DNA of 43,991 nucleotides. It comes from an uncultured Eubacteriales bacterium. GTDB taxonomy: Bacteria; Bacillota; Clostridia; Peptostreptococcales; Anaerovoracaceae. The first letter of the stretch is position 1; every line of letters begins with the position of its first letter. Under the pieces are notes generated by a model. That model made no database searches and had not been told where the DNA came from. It saw only the letters and a list, made by a program, of their open reading frames with translations. The translations under genes and the position numbers were made by a program. The stretch covers positions 1 to 43,991 of the forward strand of contig CACZTH010000161.1 of the NCBI GenBank assembly GCA_902784035.1, given 5' to 3'. Of the stretch, positions 4,862-32,618 are shown one piece after another.

Positions 4862-4884
4862 AGACATGGACAGAGGAGAATTGA

Positions 4885-6083: not shown

Positions 6084-6212
6084 GGCCGGTCGGGCGGAAG
6101 ACCGCCCGTCAAGTTGAAATTTGTTTAATATCATCAATTATCACGAAGCGGCAGATTGGGGGCACCACCTTCTGCCGCTATAGAAAATCATGCGTTTTTT
6201 CGGAGGGTAATC

Positions 6213-8216: not shown

Positions 8217-8914
8217 ATGGCTGGCTTGATCACCTTTCAGCATGTATGGAAGACCTATCAGATGGGGGATGTCGAGATCCACGCCCTGCGTGACGTGAGC
8301 TTCCAGGCGGAGGAGGGGGAGCTCTGCGTGATCCTCGGCGCTTCCGGAGCGGGGAAGACCACGCTTCTGAACCTGCTGGGCGGCATGGACCGGCCCTCGC
8401 GGGGGCAGATCTTTCTGGAGGACTGGGAGGTGTCCGCGCTGACGGAGAAGGAGCTGATCCAGTACCGGCGGCGGGAGGTGGGCTTCGTTTTCCAGTTCTA
8501 CAACCTGATGCCCAACCTGACGGCGGAGGAAAATGTGGAGATCGCGGCCATGCTGAGCCCAGACGCCATGGACCCCTGGGAGGCTCTGGCCCAGGTCGGC
8601 CTCGGGGACCGGCTGGAAAATTTTCCTGCCCAGCTGTCCGGCGGCGAGCAGCAGCGGGTGGCCATCGCCCGGGCCGTGGCCAAGCGGCCCCGGCTCCTGC
8701 TCTGCGATGAGCCCACCGGCGCGCTGGACGCGGCCACCGGCCAGACGGTCCTGAAGCTCCTGGCGGCCGCCGGCCGGGGGTCACGACCTTCCTCATCACC
8801 CATAACCAGGCCATCGCCCCCATGGCCGACCGGGTCATCCGGATCCGGTCCGGGGAGATCGTGGGCAATGACCGGAATCCGGATCCCGTCCCGGCGGAGG
8901 AGATCGAATGGTGA
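8217..8914 (+). pseudogene. ABC transporter ATP-binding protein (LolD/MacB-like), frameshifted near 8776-8780
   Basis: [17 protein letters not shown] and LLCDEPTG are in the first frame. The H-loop and C-terminus (VTTFLITHN...MADRVI...EEIEW*) continue in the -1 frame from 8780 to TGA 8912-8914. Confidence 0.8.
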
Positions 8915-11538: not shown

Positions 11539-12645
11539 ATGACGATGACGGGCGCTGAACAACTGATCGAACGGCTGGAGCGGGAACGCCGCCTTTCTCT
11601 TTCGGAGTATGAGGCCCTGATCCTGGCCGGCCGGGGAGAGACCGGGGCAGATCTTCGGGCTGCGGCGGCGGCGCGGGCTGCCCGGGTCCGGGACGAGAAC
11701 TACGGGAACAGGGTCTTCGTACGGGGCATCGTGGAATTCACGAATATCTGCCAGAATGACTGCTATTACTGCGGGATCCGCCGCTCCAACCAGGAGGTCG
11801 CCCGTTACCGGCTGACCGGGGACGACATCCTCCGCTGCTGTGAGGCGGGCTACGGCCTGGGCATGAGGACCTTCGTTCTCCAGGGGGGAGAGGACGGCTG
11901 GTATGATGATGACCGGATGGCGGCCATCGTTCGCCGGGTGAAGGGGGAATTCCCTGACTGCGCCGTGACCCTGTCTCTGGGAGAGCGGTCCAGGGACAGC
12001 TACCAGCGCCTCTTCGACGCGGGGGCGGACCGCTATCTCCTCCGGCATGAGACCGCGGACCGGGCCCACTACCGGAAGCTCCATCCGGCCAGCATGTCCT
12101 GGGAGCACCGGATGGCCTGTCTCTGCGTCCTCCGGGGTATCGGATACGCCGTGGGCCTGGGCATGATGGTGGGGTCCCCCTTCCAGACCGCGCGTGACCT
12201 GGCGGAGGACCTGAAGCTGATCGAAACCTTCCAGCCGGACATGTGCGGGATCGGGCCCTTCATCCCTCACAGGGACACCCCCTTTCGGGACCAGCCCGCG
12301 GGGACCCTGGAGGAGACCCTCTATCTTCTGTCTCTGATCCGCCTGCTCTGTCCCGATGTTCTCCTGCCCGCCACCACCGCCCTGGGCACCATCGATCCCC
12401 GGGGCAGGGAGAAGGGGGTGGCCGCCGGCGCGAATGTGGTCATGCCGAATCTTTCGCCGGGCCGGGTCCGCCATCAGTATGAGCTGTATGATAATAAGAT
12501 CTGCATGGATGATGAACCGGTCATGTGCAGAAACTGCCTGGACCTCCGGATGCGGACCGTGGGCTGCCGGATCGTGGTGGACCGCGGCGACCGGAGGAGG
12601 GCGGACAGCGCGGAGCGAAAACAGACGGAAACTGAGCCTGAATGA
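11539..12645 (+). CDS. hydE: [FeFe]-hydrogenase H-cluster radical SAM maturase HydE
   Basis: RGIVEFTNICQNDCYYCG (CxxxCxxC), YLLRHET, GIGPFIPH.DTP, PATTALGT, GANVVMPN, YELY, and C-terminal Cx7Cx2C (CMDDEPVMCRNC) as in HydE's auxiliary cluster site. Confidence 0.9.
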   Translation: MTMTGAEQLIERLERERRLSLSEYEALILAGRGETGADLRAAAAARAARVRDENYGNRVFVRGIVEFTNICQNDCYYCGIRRSNQEVARYRLTGDDILRCCEAGYGLGMRTFVLQGGEDGWYDDDRMAAIVRRVKGEFPDCAVTLSLGERSRDSYQRLFDAGADRYLLRHETADRAHYRKLHPASMSWEHRMACLCVLRGIGYAVGLGMMVGSPFQTARDLAEDLKLIETFQPDMCGIGPFIPHRDTPFRDQPAGTLEETLYLLSLIRLLCPDVLLPATTALGTIDPRGREKGVAAGANVVMPNLSPGRVRHQYELYDNKICMDDEPVMCRNCLDLRMRTVGCRIVVDRGDRRRADSAERKQTETEPE

Positions 12646-12715
12646 GATTGCCGCCGCGGGTCGCGGGTCGGCCGGATCGGTCAGATCAACTGGCTCGAAC
12701 CGCCCGCCCCTGGCC

Positions 12716-12743
12716 TTGACAGTCCTTGTGCGGATGATAAAAT
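12716..12743 (+). promoter_or_regulatory. Strong sigma-A-like promoter for the TM1266/nitrogenase-like/hyp operon
   Basis: TTGACA (12716-12721), 16 bp spacer containing an extended -10 TG (12735-12736), TAAAAT (12738-12743). Confidence 0.75.
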
Positions 12744-12815
12744 ACAGATAGATAAGCATTCCATCTGACCGTGAGGTGATCCGAGCGGGAAGCGGAGGAT
12801 GCGGACCGCATTCTG

Positions 12816-12844
12816 ATCCTTCCCGAGCCCGGGAAGGATTTTTT
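12816..12844 (+). terminator. Intrinsic terminator inside the operon leader (attenuator)
   Basis: Perfect stem ATCCTTCCCG-AGCC-CGGGAAGGAT plus TTTTT, lying between the promoter and the RBS (AAGGAG 12855-12860). Confidence 0.75.
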
Positions 12845-12866
12845 GTCAGAAAGAAAGGAGATCGTC

Positions 12867-13130
12867 ATGAGCGAAGAGAAGAGACTGGGGATCGTCGGCG
12901 TCGTGGTGGAGGACCTGACCCAGGCGGAGGCGGTGAACGAGGTGATCCATGACTTCAGCGGCCTGATCGTGGCCCGGATGGGGATCCCCTACCGGGAAAG
13001 GGGGGTCTCGGTCATCTCTCTCCTGGTGGACGGGGGGCAGGACCAGATTAACGCCCTGACCGGGCGGCTTGGCCGGATCCCGGACGTGTACGCCAAGTCC
13101 ATGCTTCAGCGGATGAAGGAACAGGCATGA
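12867..13130 (+). CDS. TM1266-family iron-only hydrogenase system putative regulator (ACT-like)
   Basis: 87 aa: [12 protein letters not shown]...VNEVIH...[19 protein letters not shown]...[11 protein letters not shown]. This family is normally found beside hydE/hydG. Confidence 0.85.
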
Positions 13131-13906
13131 AGAAGATCGCCATCTATGGGAAAGGCGGGATCGGCAAGTCCACGGTGACCTCCAACCTGGCGGCGGCCTT
13201 CGCCATGCTGGGGAAGAAGGTCATCCAGATCGGCTGCGACCCGAAGGCGGATTCCACCATCAGCCTCCTGGGCGGGGAGCCCCTCCAGCCGGTGATGGAT
13301 TACATGCGGGCCTATGATAAGGAGCCCGGGCTGGAGGAGGCCATGAAGGTCGGCTTCGGCGGGGTCCTCTGCATCGAGACCGGGGGCCCGACGCCTGGCC
13401 TGGGCTGCGCGGGGCGGGGGATCATCGCCACTTTCTCGCTGCTGGAGGACCTGGAGCTTTTCGAAAAAGAAGACCCGGACATCGTTCTCTATGATGTCTT
13501 AGGAGACGTGGTCTGCGGCGGTTTCGCCGCTCCCATCCGGGAGGGCTACGCCAGCGAGATCCTGATCGTGACTTCGGGGGAAAAGATGGCGCTGTACGCC
13601 GCGGGCAACATCAGCGACGCGGTGATGAATTTCGAGGACAGAAGCTATGCCCGGGTCCGGGGCGTGGTCCTGAACCGGAGGAATGTGCCGGACGAGGAGG
13701 AAAAGGTGAAGGCCTTCGCGGCCTCCCGGGGCTTCCCGGTGATCGCGGACATCCCGCGGAGCGACGCCATTAATGAGTATGAGGACCAGGGCATGACGGT
13801 GATCCAGGGAAATCCGGATCTGCCGGTGAGCCAGTGCTTCTTCCGGCTGGCGCGGACGCTGCTGGAGGACGAGGACGGCGGAAAAGCGCCGGCGGCGGAG
13901 GCGTGA
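13127..13906 (+). CDS. Nitrogenase Fe-protein-like ATPase/reductase (NifH/CfbC/BchL family), copy 1
   Basis: [32 protein letters not shown] and [11 protein letters not shown]; both [4Fe-4S] cysteines present. Confidence 0.93.
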
Positions 13907-14000
13907 CGGTCCTCCCGCTGGCGGACGCCGGAGGCGGCAGCGGTACGACGGTCTTCCCGCGGGCGGGGCGCCGGCGGAGAAGGGGATGACGGCCGCCCGC
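13905..14000. repeat. Degenerate ~42-bp tandem repeat in the intergenic spacer
   Basis: Units begin GACGGTCCTCCCGC (13905), GACGGTCTTCCCGC (13947) and GACGGCCGCCCGC (13988). Confidence 0.5.
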
Positions 14001-14047
14001 AGGGCAGAATTCGTCAGTTCATGAAAGCGGAGAGAGGCGGAGAAAAC

Positions 14048-15370
14048 ATGCGGAATGACCAGCCCTACAGCATCACAGCCAGGGAGCTCTATGGAGCGGG
14101 ACCGGACCAGATCCCGGATCCCTTCATCCCCAGCTGCCACCTGATCTACAGCTCTCCGGCCACCCTGGCCTATAACTCCCCCGGGGCCATCGGCTTCGGG
14201 GTGAAAAGGGCGGGGCTCCTGATCCCGGAGTCCGTCATGCTCCTGGTGTCCCCCGCCTGCTGCGGGCGGAATTCCACCATTCTTTCCAGTGAGGAAGGCT
14301 ACGCGGACCGGATGTTCTACCTGCTTATGAAGGAGGCGGACCTGGTGACCGGCCGCCACCTGTCCCGGATTTCCCAGGCTATCCGGGAGATCGCGGAGGC
14401 GGCGGAGCCCCGGCCGAAGGTGGTGGTCATCTGCATCACCTGCGCGGACGCGCTCCTGGGCACGGACCTGGAGCGGGTCTGCCGGCGGGCGGAGGCGGAG
14501 ACCGGCCTCCGGGTGGTCCCCAGCTATATGTACGCCCTGGAGCGGGAGGGACGGAAGCCCCCCATGGCCGCCATCCGGAAAACCATTTACTCCCTGCTGG
14601 AAAAGGGCGAAAAAGAGCCGGACCGGATCAACCTGATGGGCTTCTTCACGCCGGTGGATCCGAGGAGCGAGCTTTTCCAGGTTCTCCGGGGGATGGGGAT
14701 CCGGAAGATCGGTCAGGTCTGCCAGTATGACAGCCTGGACGCCTATCAGAAGATGGGCCGGGCCAATTTCAACCTGGTCCTTCATCCCGAGTCCCGCTAC
14801 GCCGCCGAGGACCTGCTGACCCGGCTGGGCATGCCCTATATCGAGTTTCCCCGCCTCTTCCAGCCGGAACGGATCCACCAGCAGTACCAGCTCCTGGCCG
14901 CCGCGCTGGGGACGCGCGCCGAGGACGGCCCCATGTTCGAAGCGGCCCGGAAGGCCCGGGACCAGTTTCGGTCCCGCTACGCCGGCCTGACCTGCGCGGT
15001 GGGGGAGATGACGAACGCCGATCCTTTCGAGCTGGCCGCCTCTCTGGCGGACATGGGCCTCCGGGTGAAAAGCGTCTTTTCCAACGTGACCCCGGACAGC
15101 TTTCCCTTCCTGAAGCGGCTGGCGGCGGCTTCCCCGGATACCCGGATCTACACCGGCATCTCCCCCTCCATGATCCATTATGAAGAGGAGAAGGACGTAG
15201 ACCTGACCATCGGAAAGGACGCCGGCGGATACATCCCGTCCGCCAGGAACCTGGAATGGTTCGGAGAGCTCCAGCCCTACGGTTTCCAGGGCTTTACTGA
15301 TTTTCTGTCCGCCGCCTCCGCCGTCCTGGAGGGACCAGCCTCCGACGAACGAAAGGGGGTCTTCCTGTGA
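14048..15370 (+). CDS. Nitrogenase component-1-like oxidoreductase, D/alpha-type subunit, copy 1
   Basis: VSPACCGR, MKEADLVTG, ITCADALLGTDL, INLMG and YGFQG follow the NifD/E/BchN/CfbD pattern. Start at ATG 14048 (alternative 14021). Confidence 0.85.
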   Translation: MRNDQPYSITARELYGAGPDQIPDPFIPSCHLIYSSPATLAYNSPGAIGFGVKRAGLLIPESVMLLVSPACCGRNSTILSSEEGYADRMFYLLMKEADLVTGRHLSRISQAIREIAEAAEPRPKVVVICITCADALLGTDLERVCRRAEAETGLRVVPSYMYALEREGRKPPMAAIRKTIYSLLEKGEKEPDRINLMGFFTPVDPRSELFQVLRGMGIRKIGQVCQYDSLDAYQKMGRANFNLVLHPESRYAAEDLLTRLGMPYIEFPRLFQPERIHQQYQLLAAALGTRAEDGPMFEAARKARDQFRSRYAGLTCAVGEMTNADPFELAASLADMGLRVKSVFSNVTPDSFPFLKRLAAASPDTRIYTGISPSMIHYEEEKDVDLTIGKDAGGYIPSARNLEWFGELQPYGFQGFTDFLSAASAVLEGPASDERKGVFL

Positions 15371-16620
15371 AAGGCCTGTATCGCTATCTCAGCCCCGCGG
15401 CCCCGGACCAGTCCGGCGCGGTCTCCGTCCTGTTCGAGCAGGGCGGCCTGATCGTGGTCCTGGACGCCGGCGGCTGCACCGGCAACATCTGCGGCTTCGA
15501 CGAGCCCCGCTGGTTCCTCCGGAAGAGCGCCGTCTACTCAGCGGGCATCCGGGACATGGACGCCATCCTGGGCCGGGACGACAAGCTGATCGACAAGCTT
15601 CAGGAGGCCGTGGACACCGCCGACGCCCGTTTCATCGCTCTGATCGGCACCCCCGTTCCCTCTGTCATCGGCACCGACTACCGCGCCCTGGCCCGGCTGG
15701 CCCGGAAGCGCTACGGCCTCCCGGTGATCTGGACCGACACCGCCGGCATCGACAGCTACGAGAAGGGCGCGTCGAAGGCCTACCTGGCCCTGATCGATCT
15801 GGCGGAGGAACTGTTTGGCGGGGAAAAAGCTGACCGGCGGGCGTTCCCTTCCTCCGTCATGCCCGCTCCGGGCGTCCCGGCCGCCGGGACGACGGCGGCC
15901 GGGAGCGCCGATGCCGGAAGCACGGAGGCCCCCGGCTCTGGCTCTGGCTCCGCCCCGCTGCCTGCTGGCCGCGTCCTGGTCTGGGGAGCCACGCCCCTGG
16001 ACCTGCCGGCGGCCGACGGCGCCCTCTGCCTCCGCCGGAGGATCGCGGCCCGGGAGGGAGTGCCGGAGGATCAGGTGGTCACCATCGGCATGGACAGCCG
16101 GCTGGAGGATCTCCGGGACCTGGGCGGGGTCCGGAAGAACCTGGTCTGCGCGCCCTCCGGTTTCGCGCCCGCCCGGCGGCTGGCGAAGGCCTTCGGTACC
16201 CCCTGGGAAGCCTGCTTCCCGGTGCCGCCGGAGGCGGCCGGCCTGGCCCGGGACATCCCCCATGCCTGCCGGGTCCTGATCCTCCACCAGCAGGTCCTGG
16301 CGGACGGACTCCGGGAGGTCCTGGAAGCCGGCCGGCCCGACCTTCAGATAACGACGGCCTCCCTTTTTACCATGGATCCGGCCCTGGCCCGGCCGGCGGG
16401 CGGTTTCGACGGATTGGCGGCCCCGCCTGACACCGAGCTTCCCGGCGAGGATGAGCTGGTCCGTTTCGTGAAGGAAAACCATTTCGACGCGGTGATCGGA
16501 GATCCCATTTACTTCCGGGCCCTGAAGAGCCCGGAGCTGATCCGGATCCCTCTCGCCCATTTCGCGCAGTCAGGGGGCATGTACCGGCCCGCCTGTGATG
16601 AGGACGCATGGATAATATGA
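15367..16620 (+). CDS. Nitrogenase component-1-like oxidoreductase, K/beta-type subunit, copy 1
   Basis: DAGGCTGN..FDEPRW, DAILGRDDKL, GTPVPSVIGTDY, WGATPLD and IGDP; GTG start overlaps the upstream stop. Confidence 0.82.
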   Translation: MKGLYRYLSPAAPDQSGAVSVLFEQGGLIVVLDAGGCTGNICGFDEPRWFLRKSAVYSAGIRDMDAILGRDDKLIDKLQEAVDTADARFIALIGTPVPSVIGTDYRALARLARKRYGLPVIWTDTAGIDSYEKGASKAYLALIDLAEELFGGEKADRRAFPSSVMPAPGVPAAGTTAAGSADAGSTEAPGSGSGSAPLPAGRVLVWGATPLDLPAADGALCLRRRIAAREGVPEDQVVTIGMDSRLEDLRDLGGVRKNLVCAPSGFAPARRLAKAFGTPWEACFPVPPEAAGLARDIPHACRVLILHQQVLADGLREVLEAGRPDLQITTASLFTMDPALARPAGGFDGLAAPPDTELPGEDELVRFVKENHFDAVIGDPIYFRALKSPELIRIPLAHFAQSGGMYRPACDEDAWII

Positions 16621-18965
16621 CCCGGCGAAAACTTCATATCTTCGGGATTGTCCAGGGGGTGGGCTTCCGCCCCCACGCGGCTCGGACCGCGGCGGATACC
16701 GGGGTCACCGGCACCGTCTGCAATAAGGGGCCCTATGTGGAGATCTTCATCCAGGGGACCCTGGCCCAGGTCGACCGCTTCGAGCGCCTGCTCCAGGACA
16801 GAGCCCCGGAACGGTCCCACATTCTCCAGGTGGAAGCGGAGAATGTTCCGGTCGAGCCCGGCGAGTCTGATTTCCGGATCATTCACAGCCAGAAGGTAAG
16901 GGGAAGGATCCTGGTTTCCCCGGACATCGCCATCTGCCCGGACTGTGAGCGGGAGCTCTTCGACCCGGAGGATCCCCGCTACCTTCATCCCTTCATCAAT
17001 TGCACCGCCTGCGGTCCCCGGCTGACCATCCTGAAGGGCATGCCCTATGACCGGGTGCGGACCAGCATGAGCCGCTTTCCCATGTGCCCCCGCTGTGAGG
17101 GCGAGTACACAGACCCGAAGAGCCGGCGCTATCACGCTCAGCCTGTCTGCTGCCCCGACTGCGGCCCTCATCTCACCGCCTTCCGGCCCGATCAGCCGGA
17201 GACCAGGAAGAAGGGGGACGCGGAGGTCATCCGCCTGGCCCGAAAGACCCTTCGGGCGGGAGGCATCCTCGCGGTCAAAGGCATCGGCGGCTTTCACCTG
17301 GCCTGCGACGCCCGGTCCCAGGCCGCTGTGGCCCGGCTCCGCCGCCTGAAGGCCCGGCCGTTCAAGCCCTTTGCCGTCATGGTCCGGGACCTGGAGACAG
17401 CGGCCCGGGAGTGTGAGATCGGCGGAGCGGAGAAGGCGCTGACCGGGCCGGAGAAACCCATCCTCCTTCTGCCGAAGCGGGCGGACGGGGCGGTTACCGG
17501 TCTCGCGGCGCCGGAACAGTCACGGCTGGGGATCATGCTCCCCTATACGCCCCTCCACCACCTGCTTTTCCGTTATCCGGACGGGGAGGGGATGACCGAC
17601 TGCCTGATCATGACCAGCGCCAACCCGAAGGGGGCGCCCATCTGCCGGACGGCGGAGGAAGTCCGGGACAGTCTGGGCGGCCTGTGCGACCTGGTGGTGG
17701 ACCATGACCGGGAAATCCTCCTCCGGGCGGATGATTCCGTGGCCGCCCTTTCCCGGGGCCGACTGTCCATGATCCGGAGATCCCGGGGCTACGCGCCCCT
17801 GCCCTTCACCGGCCCCGCCGGCGAACGGGGGACTGTCCTGGGCATGGGAGGCGAGCTGAAGAACACCTTCTGCCTGGCGAAGGACGGACTCTATTATCCT
17901 TCTCCCTATATAGGGGATCTGGCCGACCTTCGGAGCGTGGCCGCTCTCCGGCAGGCGCTGACCCGGATGGAGGACCTGCTGGAATTCCGCCCGGAGAGGG
18001 TGGTCTGCGACCTCCATCCCGCCTACCACAGCGCGGAGGAAGCGGAGGAACTGGCCCGGACCCGGGGGCTTCCGCTCCATAAGATCCAGCATCACTACGC
18101 CCATGTCCTGTCCTGTATGGCTGAGCACCGAGAGGAAGGGCCGGTCATCGGCGCCGCCCTGGACGGGACCGGGTATGGGGAAGACGGCACGGTCTGGGGA
18201 GGGGAATTCCTCCTGGCGGATCGGGCCGGCTATACCCGGCTGGGCAGCCTCCGCCCCTTCCCCCAGGCGGGCGGCGACCTGGCTCCGAAGGAGGGCTGGC
18301 GGCCCGCTTTCGGCCTGCTCCTGGAGGCCTTCGGCGGGGCAGGGGCGCCGGGCGCCGCTGAAGCGGCTGAGAAGCTGGGCGCGGAGCTCGGCCTGAACAG
18401 CCGTCCAGCCCTCCATGTCCTGAACCAGATGATCCAGGCGGGGGTCAACACCGTACCCTCTTCCAGCCTCGGCCGCTTCTTCGACGCGGCCTCAGCGGTC
18501 CTGGGCTTCCGGACAGCGTCCAGCTGCGAGGGGGAAGCGGCCATGGTCCTCCAGCACCGGGCCGAGCGCTGGAAGGGGGACATCCGGCCTCTTCAGCTGC
18601 CGGAAGTGGAGTTCGAGGGGGAGGGAGGCCTCTTCCGCCTGCCGGGAGGTCCGGTCCTGCTGGAGCTGGCGGACCGCCGTCTGAACGGTGAGCCGGCTGA
18701 CGGGCTCGCGTGGGCCTTCCACCGGGCGGCGGCGGAGATGACCGTCCGGGGGGTCTGCCTTTGTCAGAAGAAGACAGGCCTCAGGAAGGTGGTCCTGACC
18801 GGCGGCGTCATGCAGAACCTTCTGCTGCTGGAAATGATCGAGACGGCCCTGGAGGACCGGGGCTTCGAGGTCCTGACCCACGCCATGATCCCCGCGAACG
18901 ACGGGGGGATCGCGCTGGGCCAGGCCTGGTATGGAATGAAGAAAGGGGAACAGCTATGTGTGTAG
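16608..18965 (+). CDS. hypF: Carbamoyltransferase HypF
   Basis: Acylphosphatase domain GIVQGVGFRP, two Zn fingers (CPDC..CTAC; CPRC..CPDC), KGIGGFHL, QHHYAH, DGTGYG and PANDGGIALGQ. Alternative start 16617. Confidence 0.96.
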   Translation: MDNMTRRKLHIFGIVQGVGFRPHAARTAADTGVTGTVCNKGPYVEIFIQGTLAQVDRFERLLQDRAPERSHILQVEAENVPVEPGESDFRIIHSQKVRGRILVSPDIAICPDCERELFDPEDPRYLHPFINCTACGPRLTILKGMPYDRVRTSMSRFPMCPRCEGEYTDPKSRRYHAQPVCCPDCGPHLTAFRPDQPETRKKGDAEVIRLARKTLRAGGILAVKGIGGFHLACDARSQAAVARLRRLKARPFKPFAVMVRDLETAARECEIGGAEKALTGPEKPILLLPKRADGAVTGLAAPEQSRLGIMLPYTPLHHLLFRYPDGEGMTDCLIMTSANPKGAPICRTAEEVRDSLGGLCDLVVDHDREILLRADDSVAALSRGRLSMIRRSRGYAPLPFTGPAGERGTVLGMGGELKNTFCLAKDGLYYPSPYIGDLADLRSVAALRQALTRMEDLLEFRPERVVCDLHPAYHSAEEAEELARTRGLPLHKIQHHYAHVLSCMAEHREEGPVIGAALDGTGYGEDGTVWGGEFLLADRAGYTRLGSLRPFPQAGGDLAPKEGWRPAFGLLLEAFGGAGAPGAAEAAEKLGAELGLNSRPALHVLNQMIQAGVNTVPSSSLGRFFDAASAVLGFRTASSCEGEAAMVLQHRAERWKGDIRPLQLPEVEFEGEGGLFRLPGGPVLLELADRRLNGEPADGLAWAFHRAAAEMTVRGVCLCQKKTGLRKVVLTGGVMQNLLLLEMIETALEDRGFEVLTHAMIPANDGGIALGQAWYGMKKGEQLCV

Positions 18966-19168
18966 GTCTTCCTGCCCAGGTGCGGTCCGTGAAGGACGGC
19001 ATGGCCGTGGTGGACGCCACGGGGGCCTTGAGAGAGGTGTCGGCGGAGCTATTAGAGGACCTGGAGCCGGGGGACTTCGTCATGGTCCACGCCGGGGCCG
19101 CCATCGCGAAGATCAGCCAGGACGACGGCGCTGAGGCCGACGCGATCCTGAAGGAGCTGGGCGAATGA
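18956..19168 (+). CDS. hypC: Hydrogenase maturation chaperone HypC
   Basis: MCVGLPAQV N-terminus (Cys2) and GDFVMVHAGAAI; RBS AAAGGGG. Confidence 0.94.
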   Translation: MCVGLPAQVRSVKDGMAVVDATGALREVSAELLEDLEPGDFVMVHAGAAIAKISQDDGAEADAILKELGE

Positions 19169-20229
19169 GCGCGCGGGATGTCATTCAGCGGGCCCTCGGC
19201 GTGATCCGCCGCTATGACGGCCCGCCAGTCCGGATCATGGAGGTCTGCGGGACCCATACCCATGAGATCTTCCGGCTGGGCATCCGGGGACTGCTGCCGA
19301 ACCAGGTCCGTCTCATTTCCGGGCCGGGCTGCCCCGTCTGCGTGACCCCGGTGGGGTACATCGACGAAGCCATCTGGCTGGCCCTGGAGAAGGGATGCGT
19401 GATCGCCACCTTCGGGGACCTGATCCGGGTGCCGGGGACGGAGATGAGCCTGGCAGACGCCCGGGCCAGGGGAGCGAGGGTGGAGACGGTCTATTCGCCG
19501 CTGGACGCCCTGAAGCTGGCGAAGGAGGAGCCGGACCGGGAGGTGGTCTTCCTGTCGGTGGGCTTCGAGACCACCACGCCCTCCTCGGTCATCAGCGTCC
19601 GGAACGCGGAGGAGCAGGGGGTCCGGAACTATACCATCCTGACGGCGAATAAGACCATGGACAATGCCTACCGGGCCCTGAAGGGGTCGGCGGACGCTTT
19701 CCTCTATCCCGGCCACGTCAGCACCATGACCGGGACAGCCATCTACCGGGAGCTCCTGGAGGAGGGCGTTTCCGGCGTGGTCACCGGCTTCACCGGCGCG
19801 GAGCTTCTTTCGGCGCTGGCGGTCATCCTCCGGCGGCTGCCGGAGGGGAAGCCCTTCTTCGTCAACGCCTATCCCCGGGTGGTCACGGACGAGGGCAGTC
19901 CGGCCTCCCGGGACCTCGTCCGGCGGTTCATGGAGCCGGTTGATTCCGAGTGGCGGGGGATCGGGGTGATCCCGGACTCCGGCCTTCAGCTGAGGGAGGC
20001 GTACGCCGCCTTCGACGCCCGGAAGAAGCACGACGTTCCCCCGATCCGGGGCCGGGCCAATCCCGGCTGTCACTGCGGGGAGGTCCTCCGGGGCAGCATC
20101 CGGCCGGACCAGTGCCCGATGTTCGGTAGGGCCTGCACGCCGGTCCATCCGGCCGGGGCCTGCATGGTGTCCAGCGAGGGCGCCTGCGCCGCTTTTTATA
20201 AATATGACCTGAGACAGGAGCAGCAATGA
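19165..20229 (+). CDS. hypD: Hydrogenase maturation protein HypD
   Basis: MEVCGTHT, GPGCPVC, GFETT, PGHVS and the C-terminal FeS motif ending GACMVSSEGAC. Confidence 0.96.
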   Translation: MSARDVIQRALGVIRRYDGPPVRIMEVCGTHTHEIFRLGIRGLLPNQVRLISGPGCPVCVTPVGYIDEAIWLALEKGCVIATFGDLIRVPGTEMSLADARARGARVETVYSPLDALKLAKEEPDREVVFLSVGFETTTPSSVISVRNAEEQGVRNYTILTANKTMDNAYRALKGSADAFLYPGHVSTMTGTAIYRELLEEGVSGVVTGFTGAELLSALAVILRRLPEGKPFFVNAYPRVVTDEGSPASRDLVRRFMEPVDSEWRGIGVIPDSGLQLREAYAAFDARKKHDVPPIRGRANPGCHCGEVLRGSIRPDQCPMFGRACTPVHPAGACMVSSEGACAAFYKYDLRQEQQ

Positions 20230-21230
20230 ACGAAAGAATTACGCTGGCCCACGGAGCGGGGGGAATCCAGACCTCCCAGCTCATCGGCGGCCTGTTTGAG
20301 AAATACCTGGGCGGCCCCCATTTCACGAAGGATGACGCGGCGGTTCTCCCGTCTCCCCAGGGGCAGCTCGCCATGAGCACCGACGGCTTCATCGTGTCCC
20401 CGGCCTTCTTCCCCGGCGGCAATGTGGGCAAGCTGTCCATCTGCGGCACAGTGAACGACCTGGCCTGCATGGGGGCGAAGCCCCTTTACCTGACCTGCAG
20501 CTTCATCATCGAGGAGGGTTTTCTCTATGATGACCTGGAAAGGGTAGTGGCCGCCATGGCCGAGACCGTAAACAGGGTGGGCTGTGAGATCGTGGCCGGC
20601 GATACGAAGGTGGCCGGCAAGGGCCAGGCCGATGGGGTCTTCATTACCACCACCGGGGTCGGGGCCCTTACCCCCGGCGCGGCGCCTGCGGGCAGCCGGG
20701 CCAGACCCGGGGACGCGGTCCTGGTGACCGGCGACGTGGGCCGCCACGGCTGCACCATTCTCCTGGCCCGGAACAGCTTCGGCATCGACGCTGACGTGAC
20801 GAGTGACTGCGCGCCGCTCTGGGCGCCGGTCCGGGATATGCTGGCCGTGACGAAGGACATCCACGTGATCCGGGACGCCACCCGGGGCGGAGTGGGAACA
20901 GTCCTCTATGAGGTGGCCGGCGAGAGTCAGGTCGGCATCCGCCTCCGCCGGGCAGACGTCCCCGTGAAGGACGAGGTCCGGGGGGTCACCGGCATGCTGG
21001 GCCTGGATCCCCTCTACCTGGCCTGCGAGGGCTGCATGGTGGTCATCTGCCCCCAGGAGAAGGTTCCCGCCGTTCTGGAGGCCCTCCGGCGGCACCCGGA
21101 AACGAAGGACGCGGCCCAGATCGGGACCGTCACGGAAGAGCAGAAGGGCAGGGTCGTGGTCGAGACCGAAGTCGGCGGAGAGACCCTCCTGTCCCGGCCA
21201 ACCGGTGAGCTCCTGCCGCGGATCTGCTGA
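20226..21230 (+). CDS. hypE: Carbamoyl dehydratase HypE
   Basis: LAHGAGG, GTVNDLA, GDTKV, RDATRGG and C-terminal LPRIC (thiocyanate-carrying Cys). Confidence 0.96.
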   Translation: MNERITLAHGAGGIQTSQLIGGLFEKYLGGPHFTKDDAAVLPSPQGQLAMSTDGFIVSPAFFPGGNVGKLSICGTVNDLACMGAKPLYLTCSFIIEEGFLYDDLERVVAAMAETVNRVGCEIVAGDTKVAGKGQADGVFITTTGVGALTPGAAPAGSRARPGDAVLVTGDVGRHGCTILLARNSFGIDADVTSDCAPLWAPVRDMLAVTKDIHVIRDATRGGVGTVLYEVAGESQVGIRLRRADVPVKDEVRGVTGMLGLDPLYLACEGCMVVICPQEKVPAVLEALRRHPETKDAAQIGTVTEEQKGRVVVETEVGGETLLSRPTGELLPRIC

Positions 21231-21308
21231 ATAAGGCGGCCGCGGCGGACGGTCCTCCCGCCGGGAGGCTATTATCCTATCCTACAGTTTAGAGAGATCG
21301 GAGAAGAG

Positions 21309-22154
21309 ATGTATAAACTGGCATTCTATGGAAAGGGCGGCATCGGAAAATCCACCACTGTGTCGAATGTGGCCGCCTGCCTGGCGGAGAGGGGACTTCG
21401 GGTCATGCAGATCGGCTGCGACCCGAAGGCGGACTCCACCATCGACCTCCGGGGCGGCGCCCCCAAGCTGTCTGTCATGCAGCTTCTTCGAGAGAAGAAC
21501 CGGGCCGCGCCCCTGGACGAGCTGGTGACCACCGGTTACAACGGGGTCCTGCTGGTGGAGGCGGGAGGACCGACCCCGGGCTTAGGCTGCGCCGGCCGGG
21601 GGATCATCGCCGCCCTGGAGCTTCTGGACGAGAAAAAGGCCTACGAGGTCTACCAGCCTGACGTGGTCCTGTTCGACGTCCTGGGCGACGTGGTCTGCGG
21701 CGGCTTCTCCATGCCCATCCGGGAGGGATACGCCGACCAGGTCTTCATCCTGACCTCCGGCGAGGCCATGTCCTGCCACGCCGCCATGAACATCGCCGTG
21801 GCCGTGGACACCTTCCGCCAGCGGGGCTACGCCTCCCTGGGCGGGATCATTCTGAACCGGAGGAACGTCCGGGATGAGGACGCCCGGGTGGCCAGGCTCT
21901 GCGAAGACACCGGCACCTCCCTGGTGGGGTCCCTGGACTTCTCTGAGACGGTCCAGGACGCCGATGAGATGCGGAAGACGGTGATCGAGGCCTTCCCGGA
22001 CAGCGCCGCCGCTGACATGTACCGGATCCTGGCGGGGGACCTGATCGCCCGCGCCCGGGTCAACGCGGAGGCCGCCGCCCTGGATCCCGATGGCGACAGT
22101 TACGTGACCCCGGCGGGCATCCGGCGCTTCCGCGAGGAAGGAGGCCTGGCATGA
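21309..22154 (+). CDS. Nitrogenase Fe-protein-like ATPase/reductase, copy 2
   Basis: [34 protein letters not shown] and [11 protein letters not shown]. Confidence 0.93.
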   Translation: MYKLAFYGKGGIGKSTTVSNVAACLAERGLRVMQIGCDPKADSTIDLRGGAPKLSVMQLLREKNRAAPLDELVTTGYNGVLLVEAGGPTPGLGCAGRGIIAALELLDEKKAYEVYQPDVVLFDVLGDVVCGGFSMPIREGYADQVFILTSGEAMSCHAAMNIAVAVDTFRQRGYASLGGIILNRRNVRDEDARVARLCEDTGTSLVGSLDFSETVQDADEMRKTVIEAFPDSAAADMYRILAGDLIARARVNAEAAALDPDGDSYVTPAGIRRFREEGGLA

Positions 22155-23698
22155 TCATCGATCTTCATCAGGCGGAGAAGGACGACAAAGACCGCCCGTC
22201 AGACGCCCAGACAGACGCCCTGTCAGACGTCTACCCAGACCCCCGGGCAGACGTCCAGACAGCCTCCGCGGATCGGGCGGAGCTTCCCCTGGGCCAGGTG
22301 GACAGCCTGACGCCCTTCAGAGCCGGCATCGAATATTCCCCGCCCGCCCGGGGGACCTGGACCATCGCCCATACCCCCTTCCTGGTGCCGGAGAGCCGGC
22401 AGATCTTCGTCTGCCCGGAAGGCTGCCTCCGGGGGGTGGTCCTGTCCGCCGCCGAGTGCGGGGGAACAGACAGGTTCTCTGTCGTGGCCGTGAAAGAAAA
22501 GGATCTTTACGAGGGCGATATGGAGGGACTCTCCATCGAGGGCGTCTCGGATATCCTGTCCCGGTGCGATCCGCTCCCGAAGGTCTGCTTCGTCTTCACC
22601 GCCTGCATCCACCACTTCCTGGCCCTGGACCGGAAGCTGGTCTTCCAGACCCTCCGGGACCGTTTCCCCCAGGTGGACTTCCTGGAATCCAACATGAACT
22701 GCACCATGCGGAAGTCCAGGCTGAATTATGAAGAGGTTCAGTGGCGGCAGAACTACGCCGGCCTCCACGGTTCCCCGGAAGAACCGAAGGACCCCCGCCA
22801 GGTGAATATCATCGGCAGCTACTACGCGACGGACGAGGCTTCGGGCCTTCTGGAAATGCTCCGGGCCGGCGGGGTCCGGGTCCTGGATCTGCCCCGGCTG
22901 AAGACGTACGGAGACTACCGTCAGATGGAAAAAAGCGCCTGGAACATCTGCCACTGGCCTGTGGCCAGGGAGGCCTGCCGGGATCTTTCCGCCCGGCTTG
23001 GACAGCGGGAGCTGTATCTTCCCTATACCTGGGACCCTGCTGAGATCACCGAGCTTCTGAAAAAGGCCGGGCAGGCCCTGGCCTGCCCGGTCCCGGAGGA
23101 CCTGCCCCAGCGGTCCGCCCGGGCCCTGGACCGCCTCGCCCGGGTCGGCGCGCGCTTCCGCGCCGGCGGCGCGGAAGTCGGCGTGGACGGGGTGTCCACG
23201 CCCAGGCCGTTCGGCCTGGCGCGCCTGCTGACCGAGGCTGGGTTCCCGGTCAGGATCATCTACGCCGATGCTGTGGCGCCGGAGGACGCGCCGGCTTTCC
23301 GGGCTCTCCGGGAGACCCATCCGGAGATCATGATGAGCGCCATGGTCGATTTCCGGCTCCGGCTCCGTTCCCGGGACCTGGCTGCCCGGGCGGCCGAAGA
23401 AGGAAAGCGGTTCGTGGCGGTCGGCCAGCGGGCAGCCTACTTCTCCGGCACAGATTACTTCGTGAACATGGTGGCGAACGACGGGCTCTGGGGATTTCGG
23501 GGTATCGAGGCCCTGGCGGACAGGCTGGACAGCGCCTTCCGCCGGTCGAAGGACCCCCGCCGGGTCATCCAGGTGAAAGCCAGGGGCTGCGACCCCTGTC
23601 CGGGTGCCGGCGATGTCTACCAGCCCGGACCGGAGATCAGCGCCGCTTTTCGTTCAATCCCGGCGAATTCTGAAGAAGGAAGGGGGCGGTCCCGGTGA
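22151..23698 (+). CDS. Nitrogenase component-1-like oxidoreductase, D/alpha-type subunit, copy 2
   Basis: EYSPPARG, FVCPEGCLRG, VKEKDLYEG, TACIHHFLALD, VNIIG and WGFRG; parallels 14048-15370 motif by motif. Confidence 0.82.
   Translation: MIIDLHQAEKDDKDRPSDAQTDALSDVYPDPRADVQTASADRAELPLGQVDSLTPFRAGIEYSPPARGTWTIAHTPFLVPESRQIFVCPEGCLRGVVLSAAECGGTDRFSVVAVKEKDLYEGDMEGLSIEGVSDILSRCDPLPKVCFVFTACIHHFLALDRKLVFQTLRDRFPQVDFLESNMNCTMRKSRLNYEEVQWRQNYAGLHGSPEEPKDPRQVNIIGSYYATDEASGLLEMLRAGGVRVLDLPRLKTYGDYRQMEKSAWNICHWPVAREACRDLSARLGQRELYLPYTWDPAEITELLKKAGQALACPVPEDLPQRSARALDRLARVGARFRAGGAEVGVDGVSTPRPFGLARLLTEAGFPVRIIYADAVAPEDAPAFRALRETHPEIMMSAMVDFRLRLRSRDLAARAAEEGKRFVAVGQRAAYFSGTDYFVNMVANDGLWGFRGIEALADRLDSAFRRSKDPRRVIQVKARGCDPCPGAGDVYQPGPEISAAFRSIPANSEEGRGRSR
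22190..22261 (+). repeat. Six degenerate 12-bp in-frame tandem units (GACnnCnnnnCA)
   Basis: Encodes DRPS-DAQT-DALS-DVYP-DPRA-DVQT in the N-terminal extension of the D-like copy 2. Confidence 0.65.
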
Positions 23699-25047
23699 AA
23701 CAGGCGAAAATCGTCACCTCGGTCTATTCGGTGGATCTGTTCGGGATCTGCTCCCTCCTCTATGAGCTGGGGGGCCTGATCGTCATGCACGACGCCAGCG
23801 GCTGCAATTCCACCTACGCGACCCACGATGAGCCGCGCTGGTACGACATGGACAGTATGATATACATCTCGGGTCTCACGGAATTCGACGCGGTCATGGG
23901 AAATGATGAAGGCTTCATCGAGGATGTCCTGGAGATCGCCCGGGAGCGGCACCCCCGCTTCATCGCGGTCTTCGGGTCTCCGGTGGCCATGATCATGGGC
24001 ACAGATTTCCGGGGGATCGCCCGGATCATCGAGCGGCGGTCGGGCATTCCCTGCTTCGGTTTCGAGACTTCCGGCATGCGGACCTACGTGTCCGGTGCGG
24101 CTCAGGCCATGACCGCCCTGGTCCGCCGCCTTCTGGCGGAGCCGGAAGCGTTCGGGATAAGGGCGCCGGCCGGTACCCCGTCCTCCCCGGCTTTCTCCCC
24201 CGCGTCCGTTCCGGAGGCGGCGGCTGGCCAGCCTTATCAGGTCCGGGACGGGGCCGCCGCGGGCGGGGGGCCGGCTGACCGACCCCTTCGGATCAATCTT
24301 CTGGGGGTCACGCCCCTGGACTTCTCTGTCATGGGCAATGTGGCTGCCCTCCAGGCCTGGTGCCGGGAGATGGGTTTTCAGGTCTGGACCACCTGGTGTA
24401 TGGGCGATTTCCTCGAGGATCTGGCCCGGGCGCCGGAGGCGGACGTGGACCTGGTCTGCTCGGCCATGGCCCTGCCGGCAGCGAAGGAGCTTCAGGTCCG
24501 GTACGGGATCCCCTATGTGATCGGCCTGCCCTATGGGACAGGGGCCGGGAAGGCTCTGGCGAGGGCCATCCGCCGGGCGGCGGGAGCCAGGAACGGCGGC
24601 CTGAGCGGGGAGCGGGATGAATGTTTCTCCCCGGACATTTTCGGTACTTCTGAAGGGGGAGAGGCCTGCCTGTCGGGGTCTCCGAAGATTCTCCTGATCG
24701 GGGAGCCGGTGGCCTGCGGCAGTCTGAGGGTCAGCCTGGAAGCGGCCGGGGCCGGTGTAGTCCGGCTGGTCGACCCCCTGGAGGATCTGGGGGTTCCTCT
24801 TCGGCCGGGGGATGTCCGCACGGACGCGGAGGAGGACCTCCGGCGGCTGATCGGGGAGGCGGACCTGGTCATCGCGGACCCGCTCTATAGACGCCTCCTC
24901 CCGGAGGCGGACCAGGGAAAACTGATCCGCCTGCCCCATGAGGCTTATTCAGGCCGGATGTACCGGGCGGAGATCCCGGTCCTGGTGGGGGAGGCCTGGG
25001 ACCGGTGGCTGGAGAAGAAGCTGCCGCCCGCCTTCCGCCGGGCATGA
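23695..25047 (+). CDS. Nitrogenase component-1-like oxidoreductase, K/beta-type subunit, copy 2
   Basis: HDASGCNST..HDEPRW, DAVMGND, GSPVAMIMGTDF, INLLGVTPLD and IADPLY; parallels 15367-16620. Confidence 0.82.
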   Translation: MKQAKIVTSVYSVDLFGICSLLYELGGLIVMHDASGCNSTYATHDEPRWYDMDSMIYISGLTEFDAVMGNDEGFIEDVLEIARERHPRFIAVFGSPVAMIMGTDFRGIARIIERRSGIPCFGFETSGMRTYVSGAAQAMTALVRRLLAEPEAFGIRAPAGTPSSPAFSPASVPEAAAGQPYQVRDGAAAGGGPADRPLRINLLGVTPLDFSVMGNVAALQAWCREMGFQVWTTWCMGDFLEDLARAPEADVDLVCSAMALPAAKELQVRYGIPYVIGLPYGTGAGKALARAIRRAAGARNGGLSGERDECFSPDIFGTSEGGEACLSGSPKILLIGEPVACGSLRVSLEAAGAGVVRLVDPLEDLGVPLRPGDVRTDAEEDLRRLIGEADLVIADPLYRRLLPEADQGKLIRLPHEAYSGRMYRAEIPVLVGEAWDRWLEKKLPPAFRRA

Positions 25048-25108: not shown

Positions 25109-25147
25109 AAAGGCTCCAGCCGCTCTGATAAGCGGCCGGGGCCTTTT
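25109..25147 (+). terminator. Probable terminator closing the nitrogenase-like/hyp operon
   Basis: AAAGGCTCCAGCCGCT-CTGATA-AGCGGCCGGGGCCTTTT hairpin. Confidence 0.6.
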
Positions 25148-25491
25148 CGCGCTTCCCGTTGTCTGGCGGGAGGTTTTCGATTACGCGGGCGGCTGTGGGG
25201 ATCGGGAAAGGCGGGACCTGCGGCTGTGAAACGGCGATTCTTTCGACTTAACAGAATCGCGGCGAAGAATTTACAGAATTTTCACAATGGGCGAAAGCCG
25301 CATGAAATAAGGGGCCGCGGCATTTCACTCCTTCGGAGGGGCCCGGGATGTCCGTGAAACCCCTTCCCCCTGACCGGATGGTATGATAGTCTTTTTATGC
25401 AGAAACTAAAGAGAGAAACGGCAAGAAGGCCGTCTTCCCTCCCGCCCGCTCAGGAAGCGGACTGTCCTGTCGCGTTATTAAGAGGAACATC

Positions 25492-32545: not shown

Positions 32546-32618
32546 TTCGGGAGATATGCCTGGGTTGAACAGGGACAGACCTGGCTTCAGGCCTGTCCGC
32601 GCAGGCAGGAGAGAGACG

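What the first reader, a model, noticed from the sequence alone, without database searches (positions are those of the whole stretch)
11539..25047. Candidate undescribed metallocofactor system: HydE, TM1266, two nitrogenase-like H-D-K triplets and hypFCDE in one island
Seen: gene order hydE, TM1266, H1, D1, K1, hypF, hypC, hypD, hypE, H2, D2, K2. Eight junctions overlap (13127/13130, 15367/15370, K1/hypF, hypF/hypC, 19165/19168, 20226/20229, 22151/22154, 23695/23698), so the nitrogenase-like and hyp genes form one coupled unit, with a promoter before TM1266 and a terminator after K2. Known: HypF/E make CN from carbamoyl phosphate and HypC/D scaffold Fe(CN)2CO for [NiFe]-hydrogenases. HydE acts on an Fe(CO)2(CN)-cysteine synthon in [FeFe] H-cluster maturation. 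H/D/K-type proteins are ATP-driven low-potential reductases (nitrogenase, DPOR/COR, CfbCD, MarHDK). These toolkits normally serve three separate enzymes, and no hydrogenase subunit is in the window. Inference: the island builds or uses an Fe-CN/CO organometallic cofactor by a route I do not recognise, either for a nitrogenase-fold enzyme or for a hydrogenase encoded elsewhere.
Basis: partly seen in the sequence, partly recalled or inferred. Interest (0 to 1): 0.93.

Follow-up and report, generated by a model that had tools for sequence, protein, structure and literature searches.

The report
A HydG-free route to hydrogenase cofactor
This gene cluster joins the nickel-iron hydrogenase helper genes hypFCDE to two nitrogenase-like enzyme sets, takes the place of hydG in related bacteria, and occurs almost only in anaerobes that keep HydE and HydF but lack HydG, so it likely builds the iron-cyanide-carbonyl unit of iron-only hydrogenases by an undescribed route.

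Summary
Gene order and all eight overlaps are confirmed. The genome (91.8% complete) has three [FeFe]-hydrogenases, HydE and HydF, but no HydG, [NiFe] large subunit or HypA was found. The core H1-D1-K1-hypFCDE recurs in at least 584 species genomes. Of 50 carriers tested, 50 have HydF, 49 HydE, 3 HydG, 6 a [NiFe]-type subunit. In unselected samples the D1/D2 clades were found in 6 of 7 and 7 of 11 HydF+/HydG- genomes, and in 0 of 25 and 0 of 160 HydG+ genomes. Within one genus the module fills hydG's operon slot. A third form keeps H2-D2-K2, hydE and hydF but carries a metal-chelate importer instead of H1-D1-K1-hypFCDE (never both in 160 loci). Best reading (0.8): a HydG-independent supply of the Fe(CO)2(CN) synthon to HydE; all chemical steps are inferred. 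The gene linkage was noted in 2012 without a function; ten literature searches found no HydG-replacement proposal. This scan reached the same reading earlier on other DNA (e1-5450471, e1-5242768, e1-3822258).

The parts
11539..12645 (+). hydE, radical SAM H-cluster maturase; predicted acceptor of the module's product
   Evidence: TIGR03956 536 bits; aligns end to end with T. maritima HydE structures, E 3e-84, keeping LLRHET, PATT, VMPN and C-terminal CX7CX2C
12716..12743 (+). sigma-70-type promoter match
   Evidence: TTGACA-16-TAAAAT, 11 of 12; consensus match only
12765..12792 (+). conserved leader hairpin (candidate cis-regulatory RNA, no Rfam family); its 3' end can pair with the 5' arm of the terminator
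   Evidence: no Rfam match; also upstream of hydG operons
12815..12845 (+). intrinsic terminator inside the leader (predicted attenuator)
   Evidence: 11-pair stem plus T run; alternative fold without it in the shorter transcript
12867..13130 (+). TM1266-family protein, usual first gene of hydE-hydG-hydF operons
   Evidence: PF21699, TIGR03959; precedes hydE/hydG in hydG operons of the same family
13127..13906 (+). H1, NifH-like ATP-dependent Fe protein
   Evidence: PF00142 E 5e-84; below NifH, CfbC, BchL and BchX cut-offs; P-loop and both cluster Cys motifs intact
14048..15370 (+). D1, nitrogenase-fold alpha-type subunit
   Evidence: PF00148; model pLDDT 88.7, best fold matches nitrogenase chains, TM 0.6-0.68, 15-19% identity; invariant C71, C128, C131 counted from 14051
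15367..16620 (+). K1, nitrogenase-fold beta-type subunit; fused to D1 in four relatives
   Evidence: PF00148; invariant D14, C37, C42; fusions L055, L062, L063, L092
16608..18965 (+). hypF carbamoyltransferase
   Evidence: TIGR00143 688 bits; all HypF domains
18956..19168 (+). hypC
   Evidence: PF01455, TIGR00074; C2 and H45 invariant in 43 sequences
19165..20229 (+). hypD scaffold
   Evidence: TIGR00075 386 bits; CGxH, GPGCPVC, GFETT, PGHV and C-terminal cluster motif present
20226..21230 (+). hypE, ends in PRIC
   Evidence: TIGR02124 409 bits
21309..22154 (+). H2, second NifH-like Fe protein (50% identical to H1)
22151..23698 (+). D2, second alpha-type subunit; the one kept in the importer form of the operon
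   Evidence: PF00148; invariant W70, H74, C92, C152; own clade, support 100
23695..25047 (+). K2, second beta-type subunit
   Evidence: PF00148; invariant D14, H32, C37, H44
25109..25148 (+). terminator-like hairpin after K2
   Evidence: seen by eye in the sequence

Best explanation
The hypFCDE genes and the two nitrogenase-like H-D-K sets take the place of hydG in genomes that keep hydE and hydF, and likely make the iron-cyanide-carbonyl building block that HydE would turn into the [FeFe]-hydrogenase H-cluster. Shown: the genes, intact motifs, conservation, near-exclusion with hydG, lack of a [NiFe] client in most carriers, and position in the TM1266-hydE-hydF operon. Inferred mechanism: (1) HypF and HypE make cyanide from carbamoyl phosphate and HypC-HypD assemble an Fe(CN)x(CO) unit, as in [NiFe] maturation (established for the family, PMC8454700 passages). 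(2) H1-D1-K1, always encoded just before hypF, supplies ATP-driven low-potential electrons for this assembly, most likely for making CO from CO2 or for adding a second CO, and yields a stable Fe-cyanide-carbonyl species. (3) H2-D2-K2 reductively remodels that species into the cysteine-bound Fe(CO)2(CN) synthon, or an equivalent, and passes it to HydE. (4) HydE and HydF finish the [2Fe] unit as usual (PMC11736057 passages). The order D1K1 before D2K2 is read from the importer form, in which a metal-chelate ABC importer replaces H1-D1-K1-hypFCDE while H2-D2-K2, hydE and hydF stay. Confidence 0.8 is for 'replaces HydG'; the assignment of steps 2 and 3 is about 0.45.
For: Own genome: three HydA with H-cluster motifs, HydF, HydE; no HydG (none of 12 radical SAM ORFs), no PF00374, no PF00346, no HypA. 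Family sample of 61 genomes: 32 HydF+, 25 of them HydG+; 6 of the 7 HydF+/HydG- carry the D1 or D2 clade (5 full modules, 1 importer form), 0 of 25 HydG+ and 0 of 29 HydF- matched the D1 query. Class sample of 250 scored genomes: 170 HydF+, 160 HydG+; 7 of 11 HydF+/HydG- carry the clades, 0 of 160 HydG+ (their hits were NifE-like or a farther family). 50 carrier genomes: HydF 50, HydE 49, HydG 3, [NiFe]-type subunit 6. Same-genus swap: TM1266-hydE-hydG-hydF in G252 against hydA-H1D1K1-hypFCDE-TM1266-D2K2-hydF-hydE in G326. No hydG in 160 D1/D2 loci; hyp/D1K1 and importer never together. The three operon forms need 13 changes on a 59-row HydF tree, at least 3 per form on well-supported branches. 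The same leader precedes module and hydG operons. PMC9431212 (passages) reports five acetogens with hypCDEF but no hypAB, and hydG not found in five species, unexplained there.
Against: No biochemical or genetic test. 3 of 50 carriers also have HydG (G071 C. drakei, G076, G082). 5 HydF+/HydG- genomes carry neither clade (G024; G164, G180, G234, G259), so HydG loss does not always come with the module. HypA is present in 22 of 50 carriers and 6 of 50 have [NiFe]-type subunits that these Hyp proteins may also serve. The Hyp product has two CN and one CO while HydE's substrate has one CN and two CO; no known chemistry converts one into the other. The importer form has no visible source of CN or CO. 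HydA was checked in only 6 genomes. A D1-based query can miss D2-only operons (G303's D2 was missed at E 1e-15), so the zeros are 'not found with this query'. Genomes are related and the module moves as a block, so the Fisher values (8e-6, 5e-10) overstate. PMC9431212 names a putative atypical HydG in C. autoethanogenum. In the C. autoethanogenum transposon table 8 of the 10 module genes are called non-essential in both conditions, though so are hydE and hydF.
Confidence: 0.8

Rival explanations
1. The module handles iron-cyanide chemistry for another purpose (detoxifying or mining iron-cyanide complexes, or releasing iron from an imported chelate), and HydG-less carriers mature their hydrogenases from trace CO and CN or not at all.
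For: The D2 clade nests among H-D-K plus FecBCD-importer loci that lack hyd genes and occur in HydG+ genomes (G288, G317, G223) and on T. saccharophilum pTS1. Five HydF+/HydG- genomes have no module. PMC9431212 (passages) cites about 1% activation by HydE plus HydF without HydG.
Against: Does not explain the near-exclusion with hydG, the position between TM1266, hydE and hydF, the shared leader, or why cyanide-making hypFE sit in the core.
Confidence: 0.08
2. Hyp and HydE build an Fe-CN/CO cofactor that is loaded into the D/K proteins, which are themselves the end enzymes (one set catalytic, one a NifEN-like scaffold).
For: Two paralogous D/K pairs recall NifDK and NifEN; the D subunits lack the cofactor cysteine and carry strongly conserved pocket residues.
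Against: Gives no reason for losing hydG while keeping hydF in 50 of 50 carriers; D2K2 persists without any hyp gene in the importer form.
Confidence: 0.06
3. hypFCDE mature an ordinary [NiFe]-hydrogenase encoded elsewhere, and the nitrogenase-like genes are unrelated neighbours.
For: All Hyp motifs are canonical; 6 of 50 carriers have [NiFe]-type subunits and 22 of 50 have HypA.
Against: 44 of 50 carriers and the own genome show no large subunit by two families; hypF follows K1 directly across several phyla; module Hyp proteins are 45-74% identical to the window's, against 30-40% for a hyp set from a genome without the module (L127).
Confidence: 0.03

Closest known systems
Canonical [FeFe]-hydrogenase maturation, TM1266-hydE-hydG-hydF (HydG makes [Fe(Cys)(CO)2(CN)] from tyrosine; PMC11736057 passages)
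   Same: HydE, HydF, TM1266, the leader motif and the HydA clients are kept; the module sits in the same operon slot.
   Different: HydG is absent (47 of 50 carriers); CN would come from carbamoyl phosphate through HypFE, not from tyrosine; two ATP-driven reductases are added.
[NiFe]-hydrogenase Fe(CN)2CO assembly by HypCDEF (PMC8454700 passages)
   Same: All four genes with intact catalytic motifs.
   Different: No large subunit in 44 of 50 carriers, no hypA or hypB seen among recurring neighbours; coupled to nitrogenase-like genes; the product would need a second CO and one CN fewer.
Uncharacterised paired NifHEN-like proteins of Coprococcus catus and Dorea longicatena (Dos Santos 2012, PMC3464626, passages)
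   Same: Two linked copies, two conserved Cys in the D-type and one at the canonical position in the K-type subunit, next to hydrogenase maturation genes. Very likely the same system.
   Different: That paper gives one sentence of speculation (cluster assembly); no link to HydG loss, no client, no importer form in the passages read. Its sequences were not compared directly here.
DPOR/COR and CfbCD (nitrogenase-like reductases with a single [4Fe-4S] cluster that act on a bound cofactor precursor; PMC13474568 section 2.4)
   Same: Fe protein plus nitrogenase-fold component without the FeMo-co cysteine; an invariant Asp in the K subunits recalls the BchB ligand (inference).
   Different: Different ligand pattern, below all family cut-offs, 15-19% identity to solved relatives; predicted substrate is an iron-cyanide-carbonyl complex, not a tetrapyrrole.
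MarHDK / NfaHDK / Mo, V and Fe nitrogenases
   Same: Fold and H-D-K gene order.
   Different: Lack most P-cluster cysteines and the cofactor cysteine; no nifB-like gene among recurring neighbours or in the own genome's radical SAM list.

Membership tests
Canonical HydEFG H-cluster maturation | HydE with radical SAM and active-site motifs | tested here: met
   49 of 50 carriers
Canonical HydEFG H-cluster maturation | HydF and a HydA client in the genome | tested here: met
   HydF on C38, 50 of 50 carriers; three HydA; HydA in 5 of 5 further genomes
Canonical HydEFG H-cluster maturation | HydG | tested here: not met
   not found in own genome or in 47 of 50 carriers
Canonical HydEFG H-cluster maturation | activates apo-HydA | not testable with these tools
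   needs biochemistry or genetics
[NiFe]-hydrogenase Hyp maturation | intact HypC, HypD, HypE, HypF motifs | tested here: met
[NiFe]-hydrogenase Hyp maturation | a [NiFe] large subunit to receive Fe(CN)2CO | tested here: not met
   own genome none; 44 of 50 carriers none
[NiFe]-hydrogenase Hyp maturation | HypA/HypB nickel insertion | tested here: inconclusive
   HypA not found in own genome but present in 22 of 50 carriers; HypB not searched
Mo/V/Fe nitrogenase | three P-cluster Cys in D and three in K | tested here: not met
   D1 and D2 keep two of the three NifE/NifD positions; K1 and K2 keep the one Cys that aligns with NifN C44
Mo/V/Fe nitrogenase | FeMo-co Cys (alpha-275 position) | tested here: not met
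   NifE/NifD NxxxCxx motif aligns to a Cys-free stretch in D1; D2 not aligned to PDB
Mo/V/Fe nitrogenase | FeMo-co His (alpha-442 position) | tested here: inconclusive
   no shown alignment to NifD reached this region; no invariant His in the C-terminal part of D1 or D2
MAR (Group IV-C) and Nfa (IV-A) | six cluster Cys plus Cys/His pair, with marB/nifB (PMC13753814 passages) | tested here: not met
CfbCD (Group IV-B) | single D-type subunit, CfbC above cut-off | tested here: not met
   separate D and K genes; NF033200 295 and 290 bits against 402
DPOR/COR (Group V) | three Cys from N/Y plus Asp from B | tested here: inconclusive
   first Cys position replaced, invariant Asp14 in both K subunits; its equivalence to the BchB Asp is inferred, not aligned; BchL/BchX models below cut-off
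Dos Santos 2012 paired NifHEN-like clade | two linked copies, two Cys in D and one in K, beside hydrogenase maturation genes | tested here: met
Dos Santos 2012 paired NifHEN-like clade | sequence grouping with the C. catus and D. longicatena proteins | not tested
   those proteins were not among the fetched sequences

The most novel reading that the evidence does not exclude
H2-D2-K2 is a new kind of nitrogenase-like enzyme that uses ATP-driven reduction to remodel a stable, diffusible iron-cyanide-carbonyl complex into HydE's substrate. H1-D1-K1 with HypFCDE makes that complex from carbamoyl phosphate and CO2, while importer-type bacteria take it up from neighbours or the environment: cross-feeding of an organometallic hydrogenase precursor among gut and rumen anaerobes, under a shared uncatalogued RNA switch.
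Probability: 0.4. Interest if true: 0.95.

Novelty: new variant of a known kind. Interest (0 to 1): 0.86.

Why it matters
HydG is treated as the obligatory source of the H-cluster's CO and CN. If this module replaces it, hundreds of anaerobe species, including C. ljungdahlii, C. autoethanogenum (same gene order), Megasphaera and Anaerobutyricum hallii, build [FeFe]-hydrogenase by a second route. It would explain the published puzzle of acetogens with hypCDEF but no hypAB and no recognisable hydG (PMC9431212), give a function to a large uncharacterised nitrogenase-like clade, link [NiFe] and [FeFe] maturation chemistry, and offer a handle on the open question of the anaerobic CO source and electron donor for HypCD (PMC8454700). 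It is directly testable in genetically tractable hosts. The parts are known families and the end of the pathway is known, hence 'new variant'; the predicted enzyme chemistry has no described precedent in the papers searched.

Tried and rejected
Rfam: nothing at gathering score in the window; two chance-level hits in the leader. No tRNA. G024 first looked like a seventh family carrier, but its hit is another nitrogenase-like type beside Cys/Met PLP genes, so it is counted as a miss. Eighteen weak class-sample hits (E 1e-16 to 1e-25) were cut out: 17 are NifE-like, one (G223) a farther H-D-K plus importer locus. G288, G317 and G321 (E 1e-55 to 1e-67) belong to that farther group, outside the D2 clade, and are not counted as carriers. 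HypA absence was expected as a marker but HypA is in 26 of 61 genomes, so it is not used. HydE alignment (28 module, 19 hydG-type) gave no clean active-site difference, only retention of the C-terminal CX7CX2C. Transposon data for C. autoethanogenum: module genes have about half the insertion index of the next 20 genes (medians 0.011 vs 0.019 rich, 0.005 vs 0.010 CO; values typed), like hydE and hydF; too weak to use. Complex prediction for D1-K1-HypC was not available, so binding is untested. No RNA holder was listed for the stretch; no evidence either way. Both trees are quick searches without bootstrap. Literature searches found no paper proposing HydG replacement; the library lacks most subscription chemistry journals, where such work often appears. 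PMC12905484 and bioRxiv 10.64898/2026.08.20.746119 (passages) had nothing relevant. Supplementary Figure S2 of PMC3464626 was not seen and may show this gene order.

Full report
Observation. The twelve genes are real, intact and in the stated order. Eight junctions overlap and three do not. A promoter match at 12716-12743 is followed by a terminator at 12815-12840 before TM1266, so hydE lies upstream of this transcription start. H1 and H2 are 50% identical, D1 and D2 25%, K1 and K2 about 29%: old paralogues, not a recent duplication.

The own genome gives the lead. G000 (1.6 Mb, 174 contigs, 91.8% complete, 0% contamination) has three [FeFe]-hydrogenase genes with H-cluster motifs and a hydF. 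Not found: HydG (the only hit is HydE; 12 radical SAM ORFs listed, none HydG- or NifB-like by inspection), a [NiFe] large subunit (PF00374; PF00346) and HypA. Its only PF00148 genes are the four in the window. So the Hyp proteins have no usual client and the H-cluster pathway lacks its CO/CN source.

Conservation. In these 80 loci, short contigs included, I found H1 75, K1 71 (plus four D1-K1 fusions), hypF 68, hypC 67, hypD 67, hypE 65, D2 58, TM1266 53, K2 52, H2 44, hydE 27 and hydF 16. The block H1-D1-K1-hypF-C-D-E keeps its order; H2-D2-K2, TM1266, hydE and hydF move around it. One 4-kb contig (L098) has D1 followed directly by H2. A protein search gave 2102 sequences at E 1e-30 among 7996 scored. 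C. autoethanogenum has the same order, CLAU_0360 to 0351 (PMC9004356 supplementary file 2, part 5).

Exclusion with hydG. Family sample, 61 genomes: 32 have HydF and 25 of these HydG. The other seven are G000, G002, G027, G039, G042 (full module), G020 (H2-D2-K2, binding protein and hydE; no HypD found) and G024 (neither). None of 25 HydG+ and none of 29 HydF- genomes matched D1. Class sample, 250 scored of 251: 170 HydF+, 160 HydG+, 159 both. Of 11 HydF+/HydG-, five have the full module (G000, G128, G170, G303, G326), two the importer form (G204, G341) and four neither (G164, G180, G234, G259). No HydG+ genome had a D1- or D2-clade hit; their matches were NifE-like or a farther family. From the other side, 50 of the 80 carrier genomes (isolates and longest contigs, chosen before the results; completeness not given) have HydF 50, HydE 49, HydG 3, a [NiFe]-type subunit 6 and HypA 22. 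The HydF and HydE counts argue that missing hydG is not assembly loss.

Positional replacement. HydG operons in the same family mostly read TM1266-hydE-hydG-hydF. In genus g117, G252 has exactly that and G349 has TM1266-hydG, while G170, G303 and G326 lack hydG and carry the module next to TM1266 and hydF; G326 reads hydA-H1D1K1-hypFCDE-TM1266-D2K2-hydF-hydE. On a quick tree of 59 HydF sequences the three operon forms need 13 label changes, at least three per form on well-supported branches (six HydF from unclassifiable loci left out), so the swap happened several times. D1 and D2 each form a clade with support 100 and show matching subgroups across phyla, as expected for a block moved horizontally.

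A third form orders the steps. A metagenome scan with an alignment biased to importer-type D2 (560 confirmed, 80 kept) gave 36 loci with hyp/D1K1 and no importer, 19 with a FecBCD-type importer and no hyp/D1K1, 25 with neither (mostly short), none with both and none with hydG; 38 of the 80 are one 90% cluster and the 19 importer loci fall in 15 clusters; none of the 80 GTDB D1 loci has the importer. Typical order: TM1266-fecCD-ATPase-hydE-H2D2K2-binding protein-hydF. G204, G020 and G341 have HydA, HydE and HydF but no HydG or HypD was found. The binding protein belongs to the metal-chelate class. The simplest reading is that H1-D1-K1 plus HypFCDE makes a small iron complex that other bacteria import, and that H2-D2-K2 converts it for HydE. 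This is inference from gene content.

Protein anatomy. HydE is canonical. Hyp motifs are intact. Both H proteins keep the P-loop and cluster cysteines. D1 folds like a nitrogenase chain (pLDDT 88.7; TM 0.6-0.68 at 15-19% identity). D1 and D2 keep two of three cluster cysteines, K1 and K2 one cysteine plus an invariant Asp14; D1 adds C128, K1 adds C42, D2 and K2 add invariant histidines. The cofactor cysteine is absent in D1. This fits one [4Fe-4S] cluster at each D/K interface and an open substrate pocket, as in DPOR and CfbD (inference; PMC13474568 section 2.4), not a FeMo-type enzyme.

Leader RNA. Between promoter and terminator lies a 28-nt motif found upstream of TM1266, H1, hypC and hydF in module loci and upstream of three hydG operons. 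In 31 aligned copies (10 of 41 hits dropped as duplicates or off-target) 89.5% of cells pair, 5 of 8 pairs change on both sides, 0 of 500 shuffles reach it and slid controls reach at most 52%. The copies were picked with a pattern drawn from them, so this leans positive. Its 3' end can pair with the terminator's 5' arm. Rfam has no match. It ties the module to hyd-operon control; the ligand is unknown.

Mechanism. Established: HydG makes [Fe(Cys)(CO)2(CN)] and hands it to HydE (PMC11736057, passages); HypFE make CN, HypCD scaffold Fe(CN)2CO, and the electron source and anaerobic CO source are open (PMC8454700, passages). Inferred: H1-D1-K1 supplies ATP-driven low-potential electrons or CO for assembly, H2-D2-K2 adjusts the ligand set and delivers the synthon, HydE and HydF finish. 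I put 0.8 on HydG replacement and about 0.45 on this division of labour.

Against. No experiment; three carriers also have HydG; five HydF+/HydG- genomes have neither form; the CN:CO ratio must be inverted by unknown chemistry; farther H-D-K plus importer loci occur in HydG+ genomes; D2-only operons can escape a D1 query; relatedness inflates the statistics; HydA was checked in six genomes only; PMC9431212 proposes an atypical HydG in C. autoethanogenum, although none was found in C. ljungdahlii ERI-2 at E 1e-40; protein binding was not modelled.

Prior knowledge. PMC3464626 (passages) noted two linked NifHEN-like copies beside hydrogenase maturation genes in gut Firmicutes and suggested a role in cluster assembly. 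PMC9431212 (passages) reported acetogens with hypCDEF without hypAB and missing hydG, without connecting them. The 2026 review PMC13474568 (term search, outline and section 2.4) has no occurrence of HydE and lists no such function. Ten searches found no HydG-replacement proposal; subscription journals are mostly outside the library. Notes e1-5450471, e1-5242768 and e1-3822258 later proved to state the same on other genomes; they are not independent evidence.

Verdict. Real and conserved; most likely a HydG-independent front end of H-cluster biosynthesis with a de novo form (this window) and an importer form. New variant of a known pathway with predicted new enzyme chemistry. Interest 0.86.

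Noticed in passing
window 12765-12845; L008, L028, L033, L040, L108, L143, L145 and others: Conserved leader hairpin with two tandem G-A elements and a linked terminator, not in Rfam, upstream of both module and hydG operons; candidate riboswitch or TM1266-binding attenuator.
   Followed up: partly
L023, L071, L095, L097 and Megasphaera loci, upstream of TM1266: Other recurring leader sequences with terminators that differ from the main motif; possibly further regulatory motifs.
   Followed up: no
L118, L024, L119; L166, L178, L179, L182, L216, L239, L241: Importer form of the operon: FecBCD-type ABC transporter with hydE, H2D2K2 and hydF, no hyp, no hydG. In L119 (12266-13321) the ABC ATPase is fused to a TM1266 domain.
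   Followed up: yes
L120, L121, L122, L244, L129 (T. saccharophilum pTS1): Farther H-D-K plus metal-chelate importer loci without hyd genes, some in HydG+ genomes; possible ancestral uptake-and-reduction system of unknown substrate.
   Followed up: partly
G180, G234, G259, G164, G024: HydF and HydE present, HydG not found, and neither module form found (G180, G234, G259 have no PF00148 or HypD match); assembly gaps, decay or a further route.
   Followed up: partly
HydE sequences: C-terminal CX7CX2C cluster motif kept in 25 of 28 module-type HydE but 3 of 19 hydG-type HydE; may be lineage or a functional need.
   Followed up: partly
L055, L062, L063, L092; P0121-P0146: Natural D1-K1 fusions of about 800-900 aa.
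   Followed up: partly
L098:981-3022: D1 followed directly by H2 with no K1 on a 4-kb contig.
   Followed up: no
L005 (G000 contig C38): hydF is followed by a fumarate-lyase-family gene (PF00206), apparently in two ORFs; fits the aspA-hydF linkage of PMC11736057.
   Followed up: no
window 8217-11409: ABC ATPase matches its family only to about residue 185 and then reads out of frame into the FtsX-type permease region; likely frameshift or assembly error.
   Followed up: no
window 2526-8206 and 29078-43612: Threonate-type kinase with pdxA-family gene, thiamine salvage genes with a CytX-type permease, and a polysaccharide locus of lower GC (57-65%) than the module (63-69%).
   Followed up: no
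G082 (L034, L107): One assembly carries both a hydE-hydG-hydF operon and a second hydE-hydF pair plus the module; dual system or mixed bin.
   Followed up: no
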